Part shown: positions 21,736-52,967 of the stretch, piece by piece
Layout of the letters: every line of letters starts with the position of its first letter
Position numbering within the stretch: the stretch's first letter is position 1
From: Mustelus asterias
Lineage: Eukaryota
DNA: 55,344 bases
Assembly (NCBI RefSeq): GCF_964213995.1
Contig: NW_027590307.1
Span: forward strand, 434,001 to 489,344
Direction: 5' to 3'
Position numbers and translations under genes: made by a program
Notes under the pieces: generated by a model
The model's input: the letters and a program-made list of their open reading frames with translations, nothing else
Database searches by the model: none
What the model was told of the DNA's origin: nothing

Positions 21736-22996
21736 TGGGGAATCTAGAGCCAGGGGTCACAGTCTCAGGATACAGGGTAGACCATTTAGGATTGAGCTGA
21801 GGAGAAATGTCTTCACTCAGAGGACAGTGAATGCGTGGAATTCTCTGCGGAGGCCAAGTCACTGAATGTATTCAAGAGATAATTTTTTAGATTTTAATGG
21901 CATCAAGGGTCAGTATAGAAGAGGCCCTTCATCCCATCGAGCCTGCACCAACAAAACTATACTAAATCTACACAAATCCCACTTTCCAGCACTTGGCCCA
22001 TAGCCTTGTGGCTGAATGGTCTACAGAGTTTTAACTTTTAATAAGCTGAAAGAGCTTCAATCAAGCAAACCTGATTTTTGGTTAAAGTTGTTTTTTCACG
22101 ATACTGGGATGTCTTGTGACCTGGAACTTGTTAGAGGACACAGGGTGTCAAGATTTAATGGCCTGTCCTTGGCAGTGAGGAGTTCTTTACAGACGCTTGG
22201 AGCCAATGTTCCTTGGCTGGGCATTGGAATGTAAACAATGTGGACTTAAGGAGCTGACAACACGTGAGGAAGTCTGGAGTGACCAACGCCACGACTCCGC
22301 CTGTATTTGATTGGCCAAATTAAACAGTGCAATTGGGGTTCTGATCAATTCATTGGCTGGTTACCAAGGGACTCTGCTGACACAAAGGAGCCTGTTTAGA
22401 AAGGCAGTGTGAAGAACCCGGGAACCAAGCTCACAAGGAGGGACAACATCCGGAAGGAGAAGAGAACACAACTGATTCCATGTGCCAACAAAATTCTGGC
22501 CAGGTTTTAATTGCAAATGGAAATCAACCTTAAATTAAACAAAGTACCAAGTAGTGAGCATTTGGTTTGTGCAAATATTTACTATTGTTTAAGTAGCTAC
22601 AGAATAAAAGAAACTGTGTTTAAGTATGTAAAGTTGACTTTGTGTCTTTATTCGCTACAGAGGTTAAAACACAAAGTTTTAAACAACAGTCTTGACTGTT
22701 ATGACGTTTCAAGTGCTCGTCCACGTACCTTTTAAAGGTTGTGAAGCATAACCTCGGTCTCTATTGGGTTGCACATCCCTGGACTCTCATTCCACGTTAG
22801 GCCTCAAAAGCTTAGCTGGGGCTATAACTCCCAGTTAGGCAGTAAAATATTCAAGCTCTGGTTAGGCCACAAAGCCTTAGTTCTGTGTGGATTAGGCTGC
22901 ACATCCTGGGACTCCAGTTCTGGGTGAACCTGCACAGCCTGGAGCTGTCATTCTGGCTTAGGCCATAAAGTATGAAGGCTGTTGTTCTGGACCAGG

Positions 22997-24067
22997 CTAC
23001 TTGGGGCTGTCGTTCCAGTTTCTTTTTACCAGCAAATAAACCGCGGCCTCAGGCTCTGGGTTCGACAGAACAGTCTGTGCCTCAGACTGTGGGTTAGGCT
23101 GCACATCCTGGGCCTCAGGCTCCAGGTTTGACAGCACAGCCTGAGCCTCAGGCTCCGGGTTTGACAGCACAGCCTGGGCCTCAGGCTCTGGGTTTGATGG
23201 CACAGCCTGGGCCTCAGGCTCCAGGTTTGACAGCACAGCCTGAGCCTCAGGCTCCGGGTTAGACGGCACGGTCTGGGCCTCAGGCTCCGGATTTGACGGC
23301 ACGGTCTGGGCCTCAGACTCCGGGTTTGACGGCACGGTCTGGTCCTCAGGCTCTGGGTTTGACTGCACAGCCTGGGCCTCAGGCTCCGGGTTTGACTGCA
23401 CAGCCTGGGCCTCAGGCTCCGGGTTTGACGGCATGGTCTGGGCCTCAGGCTCCAGGTTAGAGGGCACAGCCTGGGCCTCAGACTCCGGGTTTGACGGCAC
23501 GGTCTGGGCCTCAGGCTCTGGGTTAGAGGGCACAGCCTGGGCCTCAGACTCCTGGTTTGACGGCACGGTCTGGGCCTCAGGCTCTGGGTTAGAGGGCACA
23601 GCTTGGGCCTCAGGCTCTGGGTTAGAGGGCACAGCCTGGGCCACAGGCTCCGGGATTGATGGCACAGCCTGGGCTTCAGGCTGTGGGTTAGATGGCACAG
23701 CCTGGGCCTCAGGCTCTGGGTTTGACTGCTCGGTCTGGTCCTCAGGCTCTGGGTTTGACTGCACAGCCTGGGCTTCAGGCTCCGGGTTTGACTGCACAGC
23801 CTGGGCCTCAGGCTCTGGGTTTGACTGCACAGCCTGGGCCTCGGGCTCCGGGTTTGACAGCACAGCCTGGGCCTCGGGCTCCGGGTTTGACAGCACAGCC
23901 TGGGCCTCGGGTTCCGGGTTTGACTGCACGGCCTGGGCCTCAGGCTCTGGGTTTGATGGCACGGCCTGGGCCTCAGGTTCCGGGTTTGACTGCACGGCCT
24001 GGGCCGTGGTTTGCTCTGGGTTTGACTGCAGAGAGCAGTGGAGGCTCTTGGAGGTAATTGAATACAT
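22997..24067 (-). CDS. Candidate coding exon/ORF built of about 33 decapeptide repeats (SNPEPEAQAV[P/Q/L]); acidic, Pro/Glu/Ala/Gln-rich, likely disordered
   Basis: 356-codon open frame. Variants among the 30-bp units are largely synonymous in this frame. ATG at 24067, acceptor-like ctccactgctctctgcag|TCA at 24025, minus-strand AATAAA at 22652-22647. Confidence 0.55.
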   Translation of the reverse strand: MYSITSKSLHCSLQSNPEQTTAQAVQSNPEPEAQAVPSNPEPEAQAVQSNPEPEAQAVLSNPEPEAQAVLSNPEPEAQAVQSNPEPEAQAVQSNPEPEAQAVQSNPEPEDQTEQSNPEPEAQAVPSNPQPEAQAVPSIPEPVAQAVPSNPEPEAQAVPSNPEPEAQTVPSNQESEAQAVPSNPEPEAQTVPSNPESEAQAVPSNLEPEAQTMPSNPEPEAQAVQSNPEPEAQAVQSNPEPEDQTVPSNPESEAQTVPSNPEPEAQTVPSNPEPEAQAVLSNLEPEAQAVPSNPEPEAQAVLSNPEPEAQAVLSNLEPEAQDVQPNPQSEAQTVLSNPEPEAAVYLLVKRNWNDSPK

Positions 24068-24105
24068 TCAAGCCAGAATCTTATCGATAAGGGAGTTGAG
24101 GTTTA

Positions 24106-24815
24106 TTGCGGGGGCGGAGGGGTGGGGTTTGGCGGGGGGGGCGGAGCGGTGGGGTTTGGCGGGGGGCGGGGGTGGAGTGGTGGGGTTTGGCGAGGGGGGT
24201 GGAGCGGTGGGGTTTGGCGGGGGGGACGGGGGCGGAGCGGTGGGGTTTGGCGGGAGGGTGGAGCGGTGGGGTTTGGCGGGGGGGACGGGGGCGGAGCGGT
24301 GGGGTTTGGCGGGGGGGGCGGGGGTGGAGCGGTGGGGTTTGGCGGGGGGCGGAGCGGTGGGGTTTGGCGGGGGGGACGGGGGCGGAGCGGTGGGGTTTGG
24401 CGGGGGGGGACGGGGGCGGAGCGGTGGGGTTTGGCGGGGGGGATGGGGGCGGAGCGGTGGGGTTTGGCGGGGGGCGGAGCGGTGGGGTTTGGCGGGGGGG
24501 CGGAGCGGTGGGGTTTGGCGGGGGGCGGAGCGGTGGGGTTTGGCGGGGGGGCGGAGCGGTGGGGTTTGGCGGGGAGGACGGGGGCGGAGCGGTGGGGTTT
24601 GGCGGGGGGGCGGAGCGGTGGGGTTTGGTGGGGGGGGCGGAGCGGTGGGGTTTGGGGTTTGGGGCGGGGGGGCGGTGCGGTGGGGTTTGGCGGGGGGGAC
24701 GGGGGCGGGGGCGGTGGGGTTTGGGGTTTGGGGCGGGGGCAGAGCGGTGGGGTTTGGCGGGGGGACGGGGGCGGAGCGGTGGGGTTTGGGGTTTGGGGCG
24801 GGGAGGGGTGGGCAG
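24106..24815 (+). repeat. G-rich, CpG-rich VNTR (GGGGCGGAGCGGTGGGGTTTGGCGGGGG..)
   Basis: Visible repeat with variable G-runs and many GGGGCGG boxes. Confidence 0.92.
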
Positions 24816-25010
24816 GACTGGAAAGTGGAGTTGACTCAATCGTATCAGACCTGATCTTATTGTGCGGTGGAGCAGGATTGTGGGCCTGTGCGGCCTACTC
24901 TTGTGTATTTGAGCTGCAACATCTGGGGCTGTACTTCCACAAATCAGGCCACACAGTTAACTCACGCAATTCCAGAAGACTCTTTAACAACAGGCTCCTC
25001 TTCAACTCAG

Positions 25011-25243
25011 TTTATTGCAAAATTAGAATTCATGATCCAATCGGAAAGAAGTAAGGGAAACAGAAGTTTATTGAGCAGCAAGCTGTTTGACTGGGTGAGC
25101 CTCGCAGCCTGTGGCATTTTATCACCTTCCTGTACATCTTCTGTCCCCAACCACCCCCCAAATGCCCCTCACTGACTCCCCCCTCCATCCCAATGCAGCT
25201 TCCTCATATAAGGCACCCAAGAGCATCTGAAAAGCATTTTAAT
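25011..25243 (-). terminator. Candidate polyadenylation signals of FCER1G (ATTAAA 25243-25238, AATAAA 25072-25067, AATAAA 25016-25011)
   Basis: Hexamers on the minus strand 450-680 nt downstream of the stop codon. Which one is used cannot be told from sequence. Confidence 0.5.
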
Positions 25244-25277
25244 ACAAATTAATGCCAAAGAAGTTGTCTCGAGAAGT

Positions 25278-25472
25278 GAATGACCTCCTCCTGTTCCTGT
25301 GTAACAGGTTCTAGAGGGGCTGAATGGCCTCCTCCTGTTCCTGTGTTACGGGCTTAAGAGGGGCTGAATGACCTCCTCCTGTTCCTGTGTAACAGTTTCT
25401 AGAGGGGCTGAATGGCCTCCTCCTGTTCCTGTGTAACAGGTTCTAGAGGGGCTGAATGGCCTCCTCCTGTTC
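25278..25472 (+). repeat. 44-bp tandem repeat (about 4.4 units) in the presumed FCER1G 3'UTR
   Basis: Unit GAATGGCCTCCTCCTGTTCCTGTGTAACAGGTTCTAGAGGGGCT. Confidence 0.9.
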
Positions 25473-25692: not shown

Positions 25693-25761
25693 TCACTCCG
25701 GCTTGTGAAACTTCTGAGGCTGCAGAGACTCGTAGGTATCAAGCTGCCGTCCTTCCAGACC
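25693..25761 (-). CDS. FCER1G: FcR gamma exon 5 coding part (GLEGRQLDTYESLQPQKFHKPE*)
   Basis: Acceptor ctcatcccatctgctgcag|GGT. Completes the ITAM YTGL-x7-YESL. TGA at 25695-25693. Total CDS 49+92+51+21+69=282 nt. Confidence 0.95.
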   Translation of the reverse strand, partial: GLEGRQLDTYESLQPQKFHKPE

Positions 25762-25777
25762 CTGCAGCAGATGGGAT

Positions 25778-26722
25778 GAGAGAGACAGACAGACAGGTTA
25801 GAGATAATGTTTTACAGAGAGACACAGAGAGGGACAGAGAAAGAGAGGGACAGAGAAAGAGAGAGACAGAGAGAGAGACACACAGAGAGAGAGAGAGACA
25901 GGTTAGAGATAATGTTTTACAGAGAGACAGAGACAGAAAGGGAGAGAGACAGAGAGAAGGACAGAGAGAGAGAGAGAGACAGAGAGAGGGAGGGAGAAGA
26001 GAGAGGGACAGAGACATAGAGAGAGTGAGACAGAGAGAGAGATAAAGACAGGGACAGAGAGAGAGAGAGACAGAGAGACGAGACTAGGGGAGACAGAGAG
26101 AGAGAGATAGACAGGTTAGAGATAATGTTTTACAGAGAGAGACAGACAGAGAGAGAGGGAGAGAGACAGAGAGACAGAGACAGAGAGAGGGACAGAGAGA
26201 AGGACAGAGAGGGGGACAGATGGACAGAGAGAGAGAGACAGACAGACAGGTTAGAGATAATGTTTTACAGAGAGACAGAGACAGAGGGACAGAGAGAGAG
26301 AGTGAGACAGGTTAGAGATAATGTTTTACAGAGAGACAGAGAGACAGAAACAGAGAGGGAGGGAGAAGAGAGAGCGACAGAGACATAGAGAGAGAGAGAC
26401 AGAGAGAGAGATAAAGACAGGGACAGAGACAGAGAGACAAGACGAGGAGAGACAAAGAGAGAGAGAGAGAGAGACAGACAGGTTAGAGANNNNNNNNNNN
26501 NNNNNNNNNNNNNNNNNNNNNNNNNNNNNNNNNNNNNNNNNNNNNNNNNNNNNNNNNNNNNNNNNNNNNNNNNNNNNNNNNNNNNNNNNNNNNNNNNNNN
26601 NNNNNNNNNNNNNNNNNNNNNNNNNNNNNNNNNNNNGGGGGACAGATGGACAGAGAGAGAGAGAGAGACAGACAGGTTAGAGATAATGTTACACACAAGT
26701 GACAGAGGGGCAGAGAGAGAGA
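25778..26722 (+). repeat. (GA/GACA)n-rich repeat with recurring GACAGGTTAGAGATAATGTTTTACAGAGAG motif; contains an assembly gap (N 26490-26636)
   Basis: Visible repeat filling FCER1G intron 4. Confidence 0.9.
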
Positions 26723-26736
26723 ATGAATGTTCTCAC

Positions 26737-26757
26737 CGTGTAGATTCCTTCTTCTTT
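26737..26757 (-). CDS. FCER1G: FcR gamma exon 4 (KEEGIYT), 21-nt exon with the first ITAM tyrosine
   Basis: Acceptor cctcctctcctccctcatacag|AAA, donor ACG|gtgaga. Matches mammalian KSDGVYT in length and sequence. Confidence 0.93.
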
Positions 26758-30626: not shown

Positions 30627-30791
30627 CGCAGAAAGCAGATTTAAAACTATTTCTGAGAGTTTTGAGAAAGTAATGGAATTTAAATTACTACTCACTGGCA
30701 TTTCCTTACGAGATTCCACTTTTCCTCTGTTCAGTCCAAGATAAACATCTTTCTGGTGGGCTCGTATTTCCTGTCAAATATATAACTCGCA

Positions 30792-31020
30792 GATATTAAC
30801 CCTCTCACCCACCTCTCCCCATTCACACACACCGGACAGCCTGTTCCCTATCGGAGGGGGATTAACCCTCTCACCCACCTCTCCCCATTCACACACACCG
30901 GGCAGCCTGTTCCCCTATCAGAGGGGGATGAACCCCCTCACCCACCTCTCCCCATCGACTCACACCGGGCAGCCTGTTCCCCTATCGGAGGGGGATTCAC
31001 CTCTCACTCACCTCTCCCCC
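30792..31020 (+). repeat. ~67-bp tandem repeat, about 3.4 units
   Basis: GATTAACCCTCTCACCCACCTCTCCCCATTCACACACACCGG..CCTGTTCCCTATCGGAGGGG repeated. Confidence 0.85.
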
Positions 31021-31254
31021 AGTTATAGGTTGAGGTCTCTCGAGAGGTACAACAGTTTTCAGGGATTCGGCAGACAGCAGGAATTGTGTCTGCTCTTCCT
31101 GGAGTTCAGTGAAGATGAAGTGGAGATTTAATCAAGTCGTCTAATATCATAAATGTGGTAACACTCGCTGTTTCCAGTGACAGGAGGGTCAGTGCCCAGA
31201 GAGACACTGATCGCAGAGTATCGATTGGAGAACCAGAGGGAGAGATGAGGAGAA

Positions 31255-31380
31255 ATGACTGTAACACTCCATTCTGCAATCTCTCCCATCCTCCTCTATG
31301 TACCGTATGCTTTGTCTGTACAGCGTGCAAACAACAATACTTTTCACTGGATACTAATACATGTGACAATAATAAATCAA
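31255..31380 (+). mobile_element. Remnant 3' tail of the Rex1/Babar-like LINE family seen at 41860-42405
   Basis: Its reverse complement resembles 41860-41970 (GTCACATGTATT..CAGTGAAAAGTATTGTT). Confidence 0.6.
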
Positions 31381-31659
31381 ATATTTTTACATGGTATGTT
31401 GTGGTGGAGTTGTCGAAGGAGATGCAAAAGTATAACTTTCAGAGGCAATTAGCCAAACACTTGAAGTGGAACAGTGGCTGATATATTTGAAAGAATGCAG
31501 ACTGGAACTAACTCAATGAATGGATAGCTGTAAGATGTTGCATTGCAAGAAAGGTATGGTTTTGAATTGAATGGAAGAATGTTTGTATCTGGATTGTGTC
31601 GAGTGAAGTTGAATATGAATTTTGGAAAGAAGATTTCACCTGTAAATTGTGTGCAAATT

Positions 31660-33529
31660 GTTTTGGAATAGAGTGGAGTGAGGAGTGTATTTGAATGGAG
31701 TGGAGTGAGGATTGTATTGGAATGGAGTGGAGTGAGGATTGTACTGGGATGGAGTGGAGTAGGGATTGTATTTGAATGGAGTGGAGTGAGGATTGTATTG
31801 GAATGGAGTGGAGTGAGGATTGTATTGGAATGGAGTGGAGTGAGGGTTGTATTGGAATGGAGTGGAGTGAGGATTGTATTTGAATGGAGTGGAGTGAGGA
31901 TTGTATTGGAATGGTGTGGAGTGAGGATTGTACTGGGATGGAGTGGAGTAGGGATTGTATTTGAATGGAGTGGAGTGAGGATTGTATTGGAATGGAGTGG
32001 AGTGAGGATTGTATTGGAATGGAGTGGAGTGAGGGTTGTATTGGAATGGAGTGGAGTGAGGATTGTATTTGAATGGAGTGGAGTGAGGATTGTATTTGAA
32101 TGGAGTGGAGTGAGGATTGTATCTGAATGGAGTGGAGTGAGGATTGTATCTGAATGGAGTGGTGAGGATTGTATTGGAATGGAGTGGAGTGAGGATTGTA
32201 TTTGAATGGAGTGGAGTGAGGATTGTATTTGAATGGAGTGGAGTGATGATTGTATTGGAATGGAGTGGAGTGAGGATTGTATTTGAATGGAGTGGAGTGA
32301 GGATTGTATTGGAATGGAGTGGAGTGAGGATTGTATTGGAATGGAGTGGAGTGAGGATTGTATTGGAATGAAGTGGAGTGAGGATTGTATTGGAATGGAG
32401 TGGAGTGAGGGTTGTATTTGAATGGAGTGGAGTGAGGATTGTATTGGAATGGAGTGGAGTGAGGATTGTATTTGAATGGAGTGGAGTGAGGATTGTATTT
32501 GAATGGAGTGGAGTGAGGATTGTATTTGAATGGAGTGGAGTGATGATTGTATTGGAATGGAGTGGAGTAAGGATTGTATTGCAATGGAGTGGAGTGAGGA
32601 TTGTATTTGAATGGAGTGGAGTGAGGATTGGTTTGGAATGGAGTGGAGTGAGGATTGTATCTGAATGGAGCGGAGTGAGGACTGGATTGGAATGGAGTGG
32701 AGTGAGGATTGTATTGGAATGGAGTGGAGTGAGGATTGTATTTGAATGGAGTGGAGTGGGGATTGTATTGGAATGGAGTGGAGTGAGGGTTGTATTTGAA
32801 TGGAGTGGAGTGAGGATTGTATTGGAATGGAGTTGAGTGAGGATTGTATTTGAATGGAGTGGAGTGAGGATTGTATTTGAATGGAGTGGAGTGAGGATTG
32901 TATTTGAATGGAGTGGAGTGAGGATTGTATTTGAATGGAGTGGAGTGATGATTGTATTGGAATGGAGTGGAGTGAGGATTGGATTGGAATGGAGTGGAGT
33001 GAGGATTGTATTTGAATGGAGTGGAGTGAGGATTGTATTTGAATGGAGTGGAGTGAGGATTGTATTTGAATGGAGTGGAGTGAGGATTGTATTGGAATGG
33101 TGTGGAGTGAGGATTGTATTTGAATGGAGTGGAGTGAGGATTGGAATAGAATGGAGTGGAGTGAGGATTGTATTTGAATAGAGTGGAGTGAGGATTGTAT
33201 TTGAATGGAGTGGAGTGAGGATTGTATTTGAATGGAGCGGAGTGAGGATTGGATTGGAACGGAGTGGAGTGAGGATTGTATTGGAATGGAGTGGAGTGAG
33301 GATTGTATTGGAATGGAGTGGAGTGAGGATTGTATTGGAATGGAGTGGAGTGAGGGTTGTATTTGAATGGAGTGGAGTGAGGATTGTATTTGAATGGAGT
33401 GGAGTGAGGGTTGTATTTGAATGGAGTGGAGTGAGGGTTGTATTTGAATGGAGTGGAGTGAGGATTGTATTGGAATGGAGTGGAGTGAGGATTGTATTGG
33501 AATGGAGTGGAGTGAGGACTGTATTTGAA
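31660..33529 (+). repeat. 27-bp minisatellite (GAATGGAGTGGAGTGAGGATTGTATT[G/T]), about 69 units
   Basis: Visible tandem repeat; 9-aa periodicity in several frames. Confidence 0.97.
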
Positions 33530-33692
33530 GTGAGCAGGGTGGTATTATTGCTTCCATTGAGCTTCTCTCCTGTGTAATGCTGCTGTTCCTGGTTCATTTG
33601 GCCACTGAGAAAGCAGCCCCACCGTCCCCCCGCGCCCCCCCACCCGCCCGCCCCCCACAGCAGCAGTTCGCAGGTGCCTCCATGTTCTTTAC

Positions 33693-33743
33693 CTCGTATT
33701 CCGAGCCCTGAGCAGGTGCCTTTGCTTTCTTGTTCATCTGGAG
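33693..33743 (-). CDS. FCER1G: FcR gamma exon 3 (LQMNKKAKAPAQGSEYE)
   Basis: Acceptor ttctcttctcctattcactcag|CTC, donor GAG|gtaaag, 51 nt, phase 0/0. Basic juxtamembrane segment ending YE, like mammalian IQVRKAAITSYE. Confidence 0.9.
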
Positions 33744-37055: not shown

Positions 37056-37147
37056 CTTCAGACGGCAATAGAGGGCAGTTAACACAATCCCGTAGACGAA
37101 GAGGACAGCATCCAACACGTAACAGATCTCGGGCGGCTGCAGTGCCT
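37056..37147 (-). CDS. FCER1G: FcR gamma exon 2 (short ectodomain + TM: [31 protein letters not shown])
   Basis: Acceptor ctccttttacacag|AG, donor AAG|gtaagt, 92 nt. The peptide closely matches mammalian [30 protein letters not shown], including the dimer Cys and TM Asp. Confidence 0.97.
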
Positions 37148-52918: not shown

Positions 52919-52967
52919 CTGCTGGCATGGCCTGAAGCAGGAAGAGCAGGGCAAGGAGGGACTGCAT
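52919..52967 (-). CDS. FCER1G: Fc receptor common gamma chain, coding exon 1 (signal peptide MQSLLALLFLLQAMPA + G)
   Basis: ATG at 52967 starts a hydrophobic leader. The exon has 49 coding nt ending in phase 1 before a GT donor (G|gtgggt), the size and phase I recall for mammalian FCER1G exon 1. It joins exon 2 in frame (G+AG=E). Confidence 0.85.

What the first reader, a model, noticed from the sequence alone, without database searches (positions are those of the whole stretch)
23040..24030. The 30-bp repeat behaves like protein-coding sequence, unlike the other minisatellites here
Seen: in the minus-strand SNPEPEAQAV frame, unit variants concentrate at third codon positions. Examples are Pro CCG/CCA/CCC, Ser TCA/TCT, Pro CCT/CCC, Ala GCC/GCT and Glu GAG/GAA. 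About 33 diverged units carry no frameshift or stop. Non-synonymous changes are mostly limited to two positions (P/Q/L and A/T). Inference: purifying selection on an acidic, Pro-rich disordered polypeptide. If it is not an FCER1G exon, it may be an unannotated gene using ATG 24067 behind the GC-box-rich tract at 24106-24815, or an exon of another gene.
Basis: partly seen in the sequence, partly recalled or inferred. Interest (0 to 1): 0.7.

Follow-up and report, generated by a model that had tools for sequence, protein, structure and literature searches.

The report
Codon-biased minisatellite behind shark FcR-gamma gene
A single-copy 33-base repeat just past the end of a shark immune-signalling gene (FcR-gamma) mutates with a modest protein-like bias, but it is most likely a non-coding repeat, with about a three-in-ten chance that it is instead an alternative last exon giving the protein a long acidic tail.

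Summary
The repeat is real but has a 33-bp period (11 codons, SNPEPEAQAV[P/Q/L]) and 29 copies, not 30 bp and 33 copies. The codon bias is real but modest. 13 of 27 alleles are synonymous against 8.1 expected after matching CpG and transition classes (p=0.010; 0.019 for the best of four open frames; omega 0.32, CI 0.15-0.71). 1 of 56 control array blocks does as well. Lack of stops and frameshifts is ordinary here. Amino-acid changes hit 10 of 11 positions and are more radical than chance. The 'own gene' reading fails: ATG 24067 and the GC-box tract lie inside one LINE 3' fragment. The array sits 1.7 kb past the stop of a complete six-exon FCER1G; decayed, frameshifted copies continue past the ORF's stop; no homologous protein was found. 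Best reading (0.55): a non-coding minisatellite, possibly carried in a long 3' RNA ending at a poly(A) signal in an LTR-like insert. Live rival (0.30): a TCR-eta-like alternative last exon, because an in-frame acceptor sits exactly at the array's start.

The parts
23045..24025 (-). Core 33-bp minisatellite, about 29 copies; minus-frame unit SNPEPEAQAV[P/Q/L]; single locus in the assembly
22997..24067 (-). Open frame of 356 aa from ATG 24067 to TAG 22999-22997; 342 aa from the acceptor (67 P, 57 E, 49 A, 42 Q, 2 K, 1 R)
24026..24060 (-). Acceptor-like site (12 of 15 pyrimidines + CAG), phase 0 with the SNPEPE frame; the pyrimidine tract is antisense LINE sequence, the CAG is the array's own Gln codon
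   Evidence: use as a splice site is untested
24025..24115 (+). First half of a CR1-type LINE 3' fragment; contains ATG 24067 and an AATAAA (24102-24107) on the minus strand
   Evidence: (L004, 86% over about 50 bases); the CR1 label is from my own knowledge
24108..24789 (+). G-rich minisatellite (the 'GC-box tract', 24 GGGCGG) expanded inside the LINE fragment at its GGGCGG-like motif
24807..24903 (+). Second half of the same LINE 3' fragment, continuing at the next LINE positions
   Evidence: 70-72% to other copies
22750..22995 (-). About seven to eight decayed copies of the unit beyond the stop, with indels and in-frame stops; single copy in the assembly
   Evidence: (score 68, shuffled maximum 30 of 300); copy count read by eye
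22006..22687 (+). Dispersed solo-LTR-like element (TG...CA, about 80% to the 40 candidates scored) inserted in a LINE tail; carries AATAAA on both strands
   Evidence: LTR label inferred from ends
22622..22652 (-). Candidate distal poly(A) site: AATAAA 22652-22647, then 25 bases to 22622 where a contig of run X3 stops just before a genomic AAA, then a U-rich tract
   Evidence: one run, depth 2, kind not on record
25011..25072 (-). Two proximal AATAAA signals of FCER1G (25067-25072, 25011-25016)
25693..25761 (-). FCER1G exon 6 coding part (GLEGRQLDTYESLQPQKFHKPE, stop TGA 25695-25693): second half of ITAM 2
26737..26757 (-). FCER1G exon 5 (KEEGIYT), phase-0 donor; the exon that would be joined to 24025 in the coding rival
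30696..30770 (-). FCER1G exon 4 (25 aa), completes ITAM 1
33693..33743 (-). FCER1G exon 3
37056..37147 (-). FCER1G exon 2, transmembrane segment (PF11628)
52919..52967 (-). FCER1G exon 1 coding part (signal peptide)

Best explanation
The array is a single-locus 33-bp minisatellite lying 1.7 kb past the stop codon of the shark FCER1G gene on the same strand, and it is most likely not translated, its third-position bias being probably a chance result of 27 mutations. Shown: an older, decayed array runs from about 22750 into the core; a LINE fragment borders it at 24025 and a G-rich repeat grew inside that LINE; an LTR-like insert lies beyond it. Inferred: the inner 29 copies were expanded and homogenised by slippage and unequal exchange (alternating two-unit patterns, hairpin-forming units), which keeps the 33-bp register without any selection on protein. 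Inferred, weakly: it is transcribed as a passenger when polymerase passes the proximal FCER1G poly(A) signals and ends at the signal in the LTR-like insert (22622), giving a rare RNA with a 3' tail of about 3 kb that still encodes the normal 118-aa protein; any effect would be on RNA stability or export.
For: Only the 118-aa FCER1G is annotated for this contig, and all 21 longer-than-70-aa relatives found are 87-147 aa. No protein resembling the repeat at 30-194 or 195-623 aa; among 1.84 billion representatives the best 150 hits are 19-52% identical composition look-alikes, and at most 3 windows in any one match 7 of 11 unit residues. Non-synonymous alleles are more radical than random and favour second over first positions. 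14 of 27 alleles change the amino acid, at 10 of 11 positions. Decayed copies with stops and indels continue past the ORF's stop, and one possible copy lies beyond the LINE (1 of 500 shuffles, post hoc). Other 33-bp arrays keep frame equally well. One block of a dispersed 36-bp satellite reached p=0.005 in the same test. Related unit cores seed arrays of 31 and 19 bp elsewhere, which cannot keep a frame. The ATG and the acceptor's pyrimidine tract are LINE sequence.
Against: Omega 0.32 (CI 0.15-0.71, LRT p=0.007, frame chosen after the fact), and the array is the most extreme of 61 blocks tested (p=0.004 in TRF register). All 11 third positions vary against 12 of 22 others (Fisher p=0.007). 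An acceptor-like site as good as that of exon 6 sits exactly at the array's start and in frame; such sites occur at about 1.1 per kb. The best frame, the acceptor, the neighbouring gene and the candidate poly(A) site all share the minus strand. Annotation and databases are weak for low-complexity, rarely expressed exons (own knowledge).
Confidence: 0.55

Rival explanations
1. Alternative last exon of FCER1G, like TCR-eta. Exon 5 (phase-0 donor at 26737) would skip exon 6 and splice to 24025, giving an exon of about 1.4 kb (342 codons, 377-base 3' UTR, poly(A) at 22622). The 438-aa product would keep the transmembrane segment and ITAM 1, lose ITAM 2 (YTGL...YESL becomes YTSN) and gain an acidic, Pro/Glu-rich, probably disordered tail. 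It would act as a damped signalling partner in FcR-gamma dimers, by halving Syk docking sites and perhaps by an acidic effect like LAG-3's EP repeat. The exon would be young, exonised through an antisense LINE acceptor and an LTR-like poly(A) signal.
For: Synonymous excess that survives CpG control. In-frame acceptor at the first base of the array, with donors of exons 2-5 all phase 0. A contig of run X3 covers 22622-23136 without a mismatch and stops 25 bases past a minus-strand AATAAA; one run, depth 2, strand and kind not on record. Precedent in the paralog: TCR-eta replaces exon 8 by exon 9 (PMC8416054, passage) and has 2 motifs instead of 3 (PMC2191483, abstract).
Against: Radical amino-acid changes and second over first positions. 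No such isoform among 21 FCER1G relatives, ten of them sharks and rays, and no homolog. The ORF ends inside decayed repeat rather than in distinct sequence. The acceptor's CAG is the array's own codon and its tract is LINE-derived, so its place at the LINE/array boundary may be incidental.
Confidence: 0.3
2. Fossil: the array was once a translated exon (of FCER1G or of a lost gene) and is no longer used; the bias is a residue.
For: Older decayed copies with the same register flank the core; omega below 1 but with radical changes on top.
Against: The bias is in the young, homogenised core, not in an old layer; no related coding sequence anywhere.
Confidence: 0.1
3. Separate single-exon gene starting at ATG 24067 under a GC-box promoter at 24106-24815.
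For: ATG is in frame; the tract has 24 GGGCGG and CpG o/e 1.42.
Against: ATG, the first 14 codons and both flanks of the tract align to consecutive positions of one LINE 3' end; the tract is a minisatellite grown inside it. A minus-strand AATAAA lies at 24102-24107, between tract and ATG. No homolog.
Confidence: 0.05

Closest known systems
Single-locus GC-rich minisatellites (VNTRs) in or near 3' UTRs (class known from my own knowledge; no paper read)
   Same: Period of 33 bp, head-to-tail copies about 90% like the consensus, interspersed variant units, decayed outer copies, one locus, hairpin-forming unit.
   Different: Shows a third-position bias at the 1-in-50 level and an in-frame acceptor at its start; length variation between individuals was not testable.
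TCR-eta (CD3-eta), the alternative last exon of CD247, paralog of FCER1G (PMC8416054, passage; PMC2191483, abstract)
   Same: In the rival reading: a downstream exon replaces the last coding exon, breaks the last ITAM and gives a new tail.
   Different: Eta is a demonstrated transcript and protein; here no junction is known. The tail here would be a 29-copy acidic repeat of 342 aa. No such isoform of FCER1G appeared.
LAG-3 EP repeat (PMC10768021, passages)
   Same: Acidic Glu-Pro-rich cytoplasmic stretch; the paper says it inhibits CD4/CD8-LCK binding, perhaps by competing for zinc.
   Different: A short EP run in a mammalian receptor, weak or absent in more basal species per that paper; no homology is claimed; only a possible mode of action if the exon is real.
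FCER1G / FcR-gamma (PF11628; XP_078060620.1, named by NCBI for Mustelus asterias)
   Same: The gene upstream is this protein: its peptides map to six minus-strand exons in the window and its contig has the length of C275, 489344 bases.
   Different: The annotated protein ends at 25693 and does not include the repeat.

Membership tests
Non-coding single-locus minisatellite | Tandem units of 10-100 bp with variant interspersion | tested here: met
   33 bp x 29.1, 86% matches, 0% indels; unit table
Non-coding single-locus minisatellite | One locus, not a dispersed satellite family | tested here: met
   only itself at 100%; next 70%, a 31-bp array; the search skips simple repeats, so a lower bound
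Non-coding single-locus minisatellite | Mutations blind to codon structure | tested here: inconclusive
   Synonymous excess p=0.019 after frame choice, 1 of 56 controls as extreme; but radical replacements and second over first positions
Non-coding single-locus minisatellite | Not translated | not testable with these tools
   No ribosome or peptide data
Non-coding single-locus minisatellite | Copy number varies between individuals | not testable with these tools
   Only contigs of one study, laid on the flanks
TCR-eta-like alternative last exon of a zeta-family gene | Lies downstream of the normal last exon, same strand | tested here: met
   Exon 6 ends coding at 25693; array starts at 24025
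TCR-eta-like alternative last exon of a zeta-family gene | Acceptor in the phase of the upstream donor, open frame, stop and poly(A) signal | tested here: met
   Phase 0, 12 of 15 pyrimidines + CAG; 342 codons; AATAAA 22652-22647. Anatomy only
TCR-eta-like alternative last exon of a zeta-family gene | Spliced transcript joining the penultimate exon to it | tested here: inconclusive
   could not decide: contigs only, depth about 2
TCR-eta-like alternative last exon of a zeta-family gene | Protein isoform detected or annotated, or seen in other species | tested here: not met
   21 of 21 relatives are 87-147 aa; no repeat homolog. Database level only
Independent gene with CpG-island/GC-box promoter | Start codon and promoter in unique, non-transposon sequence | tested here: not met
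   ATG 24067 and both flanks of the tract align to one LINE 3' end
Independent gene with CpG-island/GC-box promoter | Transcription start upstream of the ATG | not testable with these tools
   No CAGE or raw reads available

The most novel reading that the evidence does not exclude
A shark has built an eta-like isoform of FcR-gamma from junk: an antisense LINE supplies the acceptor, a 33-bp minisatellite supplies a 342-aa acidic EP-rich tail under purifying selection, and a solo LTR supplies the poly(A) site, giving a 438-aa adaptor with one ITAM instead of two that damps Fc-receptor or T-cell-receptor signalling.
Probability: 0.3. Interest if true: 0.68.

Novelty: new member of a known kind. 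Interest (0 to 1): 0.33.

Why it matters
On the best reading it is an ordinary minisatellite, and a useful caution: in shark genomes 33-bp arrays keep long open frames routinely, and about 1 array block in 50 shows this much codon bias by chance. If the rival holds, it would be an eta-type isoform of FcR-gamma (none turned up in my database searches), an independent parallel to TCR-eta, and a clean case of a new coding exon assembled from a LINE, a minisatellite and an LTR. One RT-PCR decides between the two.

Tried and rejected
Expression: no RNA holder listed (4 runs of one study, kind not on record). Run X3 has no cover at 24006-24107 and no loose end at 24026; at depth about 2 this says nothing either way. 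X3's share of words (0.56) would fit cover from 22622 to somewhere between about 23500 and 23930, a rough estimate. A plus-strand, LTR-driven reading of the X3 contig was considered; the contig runs past the plus-strand AATAAA at 23035, which fits it less well, but contigs give no strand. Plus-strand coding frames (TAWASGSGFDG, QPGPQAPGLTA): 2 and 7 stops, p=0.41 and 0.71; rejected. Second open minus frame (RQTRSLRPRLC): 6 of 27 synonymous, p=0.88; rejected. An apolipoprotein-like 11-mer gene (human APOA2 neighbours FCER1G, recalled) was considered; no frame looks amphipathic by eye and no family search was run for it. Synteny: NDUFS2-like exons lie on another contig, C676; 100 kb downstream of the window is mostly tandem arrays and LINE pieces, with no gene recognised by eye among the ORFs listed (no Pfam scan run). 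Protein search of the own genome: only itself above 50% identity among the 150 rows listed of 171. No structure was predicted: the sequence is low-complexity and has no alignment. Earlier findings: nothing near or by sequence; 8 listed of 156 genome notes were on other loci and did not change the reading. Paper searches (listings only, except PMC4016189 and PMC10768021) showed no paper on shark FCER1G isoforms; subscription papers are not covered and no supplements were read.

Full report
What is there. Tandem Repeats Finder gives one array at 23045-24005 with period 33, 29.1 copies, 86% matches and no indels. On the minus strand it reads as 11-codon units, SNPEPEAQAV followed by P, Q or L, inside an open frame 22997-24067. 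A DNA search of the assembly finds only this locus at full identity; the next match is 70% and is a 31-bp array, and another is a 19-bp array with a similar core. That search skips simple repeats, so 'single locus' is a lower bound.

The codon bias. In 28 in-register units there are 27 distinct alleles: 5, 9 and 13 at codon positions 1, 2 and 3 of the SNPEPE frame; 13 are synonymous and 14 are not. Drawing alleles within the observed classes (6 CpG transitions, 9 other transitions, 12 transversions) expects 8.1 synonymous, p=0.010; allowing the best of four open frames gives 0.019. A likelihood estimate gives omega 0.32 (CI 0.15-0.71), and 0.30 without CpG alleles. As an empirical control I ran the same test on 60 blocks from other arrays of this genome (355 kb of C275, 60 further stretches of up to 10 kb and nine search loci; blocks needed period 18-90, at least 10 units and 10 alleles, at most 3% indels; several blocks share a family and many periods are not multiples of 3). 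Of the 56 with a stop-free frame, 1 reached p at or below 0.0096 and 4 reached 0.05; the target was the most extreme. So the bias is real at about the 1-in-50 level, which a genome scan will meet often.

Results against protein selection. The 14 replacements hit 10 of 11 codons and include N to I, E to V, V to E and A to D. Their mean BLOSUM62 score is -1.29 against -0.49 for class-matched random draws; 99.3% of draws are as mild or milder. Second positions vary more than first, the reverse of the usual coding pattern (own knowledge). No stop allele is expected with probability 0.27 by chance. A second minus frame is open end to end, and the window's other 33-bp arrays hold open frames of up to 1251 aa with no indels. 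Past the stop, decayed copies continue to about 22750 with indels and stops (score 68 against a maximum of 30 in 300 shuffles).

The neighbourhood. The gene upstream is FCER1G. An annotated 118-aa protein (XP_078060620.1, named for Mustelus asterias) lies on a contig of the same length as C275 and maps to six exons at 52967-52919, 37147-37056, 33743-33693, 30770-30696, 26757-26737 and 25761-25693. Two AATAAA signals follow at 25067 and 25011. The array begins 1.7 kb after the stop. Between them, 24025-24115 and 24807-24903 align to consecutive positions of a LINE 3' end, and the G-rich tract is a minisatellite grown inside it. One possible decayed unit lies just beyond the LINE (1 of 500 shuffles, chosen after looking), which would mean the LINE inserted into an older array. 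Downstream, a 680-bp dispersed element with TG...CA ends and about 80% identity to other copies (40 of 766 candidates scored) carries AATAAA on both strands, shared by 3 of 3 copies aligned.

The acceptor. The array's first base, 24025, follows a pyrimidine tract (12 of 15) and CAG, comparable to the annotated exon 6 acceptor (11 of 15). Sites of this grade occur at 1.1 per kb in non-tandem window sequence (78 in 71 kb). It is in phase 0 with the SNPEPE frame, as are the donors of exons 2-5. I noticed it after the fact, and its tract is antisense LINE, but it is the main reason the coding rival stays alive.

RNA. Four runs of one study hold the stretch; none is on record as RNA. Run X3 (117,621 contigs, 56.5 million letters) looks unlike genomic DNA: a high-copy element reads about 50 times the unique depth in X3, against about 9,500 in X1 and 5,700 in X4, so I infer it is a transcriptome. 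One X3 contig of 515 letters, depth 2, matches from 22622 without a difference and stops 25 bases past the minus-strand AATAAA, just before a genomic AAA and ahead of a U-rich tract. Contigs cannot show strand or ends, and this is one run, below the tool's own bar for a weak hint. If it is a poly(A) end, it fits a long 3' UTR and an alternative last exon equally.

Relatives. No protein at E 0.001 among about 8,000 candidates each at 195-623 aa and 30-194 aa. Full HMMER over 1.84 billion representatives gave 209 hits; the best 150 are 19-52% identical look-alikes with unrelated flanks where read. All 21 FCER1G relatives longer than 70 aa (of 45 candidates) are 87-147 aa. Other shark genomes could not be searched as DNA, so orthology is untested.

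Mechanism and odds. Most likely (0.55) the array grew by slippage and unequal exchange, kept its register for mechanical reasons, and is at most a passenger in a rare long FCER1G 3' RNA. The rival (0.30) is an eta-like last exon: exon 5 joined to 24025 would give 96 + 342 = 438 aa, keep ITAM 1, break ITAM 2 and add an acidic tail. TCR-eta does this in the paralog (PMC8416054, passage; PMC2191483, abstract), and LAG-3's EP repeat offers a way such a tail could inhibit (PMC10768021, passages). A fossil exon (0.10) and a separate gene (0.05) are the rest. These odds are my judgement, not a computed figure.

Verdict. Observation partly confirmed, interpretation partly supported. A new member of a known kind on the best reading; interest 0.33, carried mostly by a cheap, decisive test of the eta-like rival.

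Noticed in passing
window 30696-33743 and 25693-26757 (minus); alignment A1: Shark and ray FcR-gamma has two ITAM-shaped motifs (YEEI-x7-YLGL and YTGL-x7-YESL); the 25-aa exon 4 that completes the first is missing in annotated short isoforms of a catshark and a caecilian. Mammalian FcR-gamma has one (own knowledge). PMC4016189 (passages) reported no FcR-gamma in sharks in 2014; searches listed no paper on this.
   Followed up: partly
window 22006-22687: Solo-LTR-like family with AATAAA on both strands about 45 bases apart, kept in 3 of 3 other copies aligned: a possible two-way poly(A) cassette spread through the genome.
   Followed up: partly
window 24108-24789 and 25277-25472: The G-rich minisatellite arose inside a LINE 3' end; the 44-bp array in the FCER1G 3' UTR resembles the 47-bp satellite filling L069, L087 and L098 and by eye also the LINE tail.
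   Followed up: partly
L018 (G000:C17:72917226-72917312): The second PF11628 locus, reading NDPKWCYILDGILFVYG, probably CD247.
   Followed up: no
L006 1415-1744 and L007 1315-1743: Single 18-bp and 30-bp arrays with periods divisible by 3 beside exon-like sequence; possible true coding repeats.
   Followed up: no
G000:C275:134001-434000: Mostly giant satellites (49-bp x 1908, 70-bp x 549, 39-bp x 794); the 100 kb next to the window showed no recognisable gene by eye, and NDUFS2-like exons lie on C676.
   Followed up: partly
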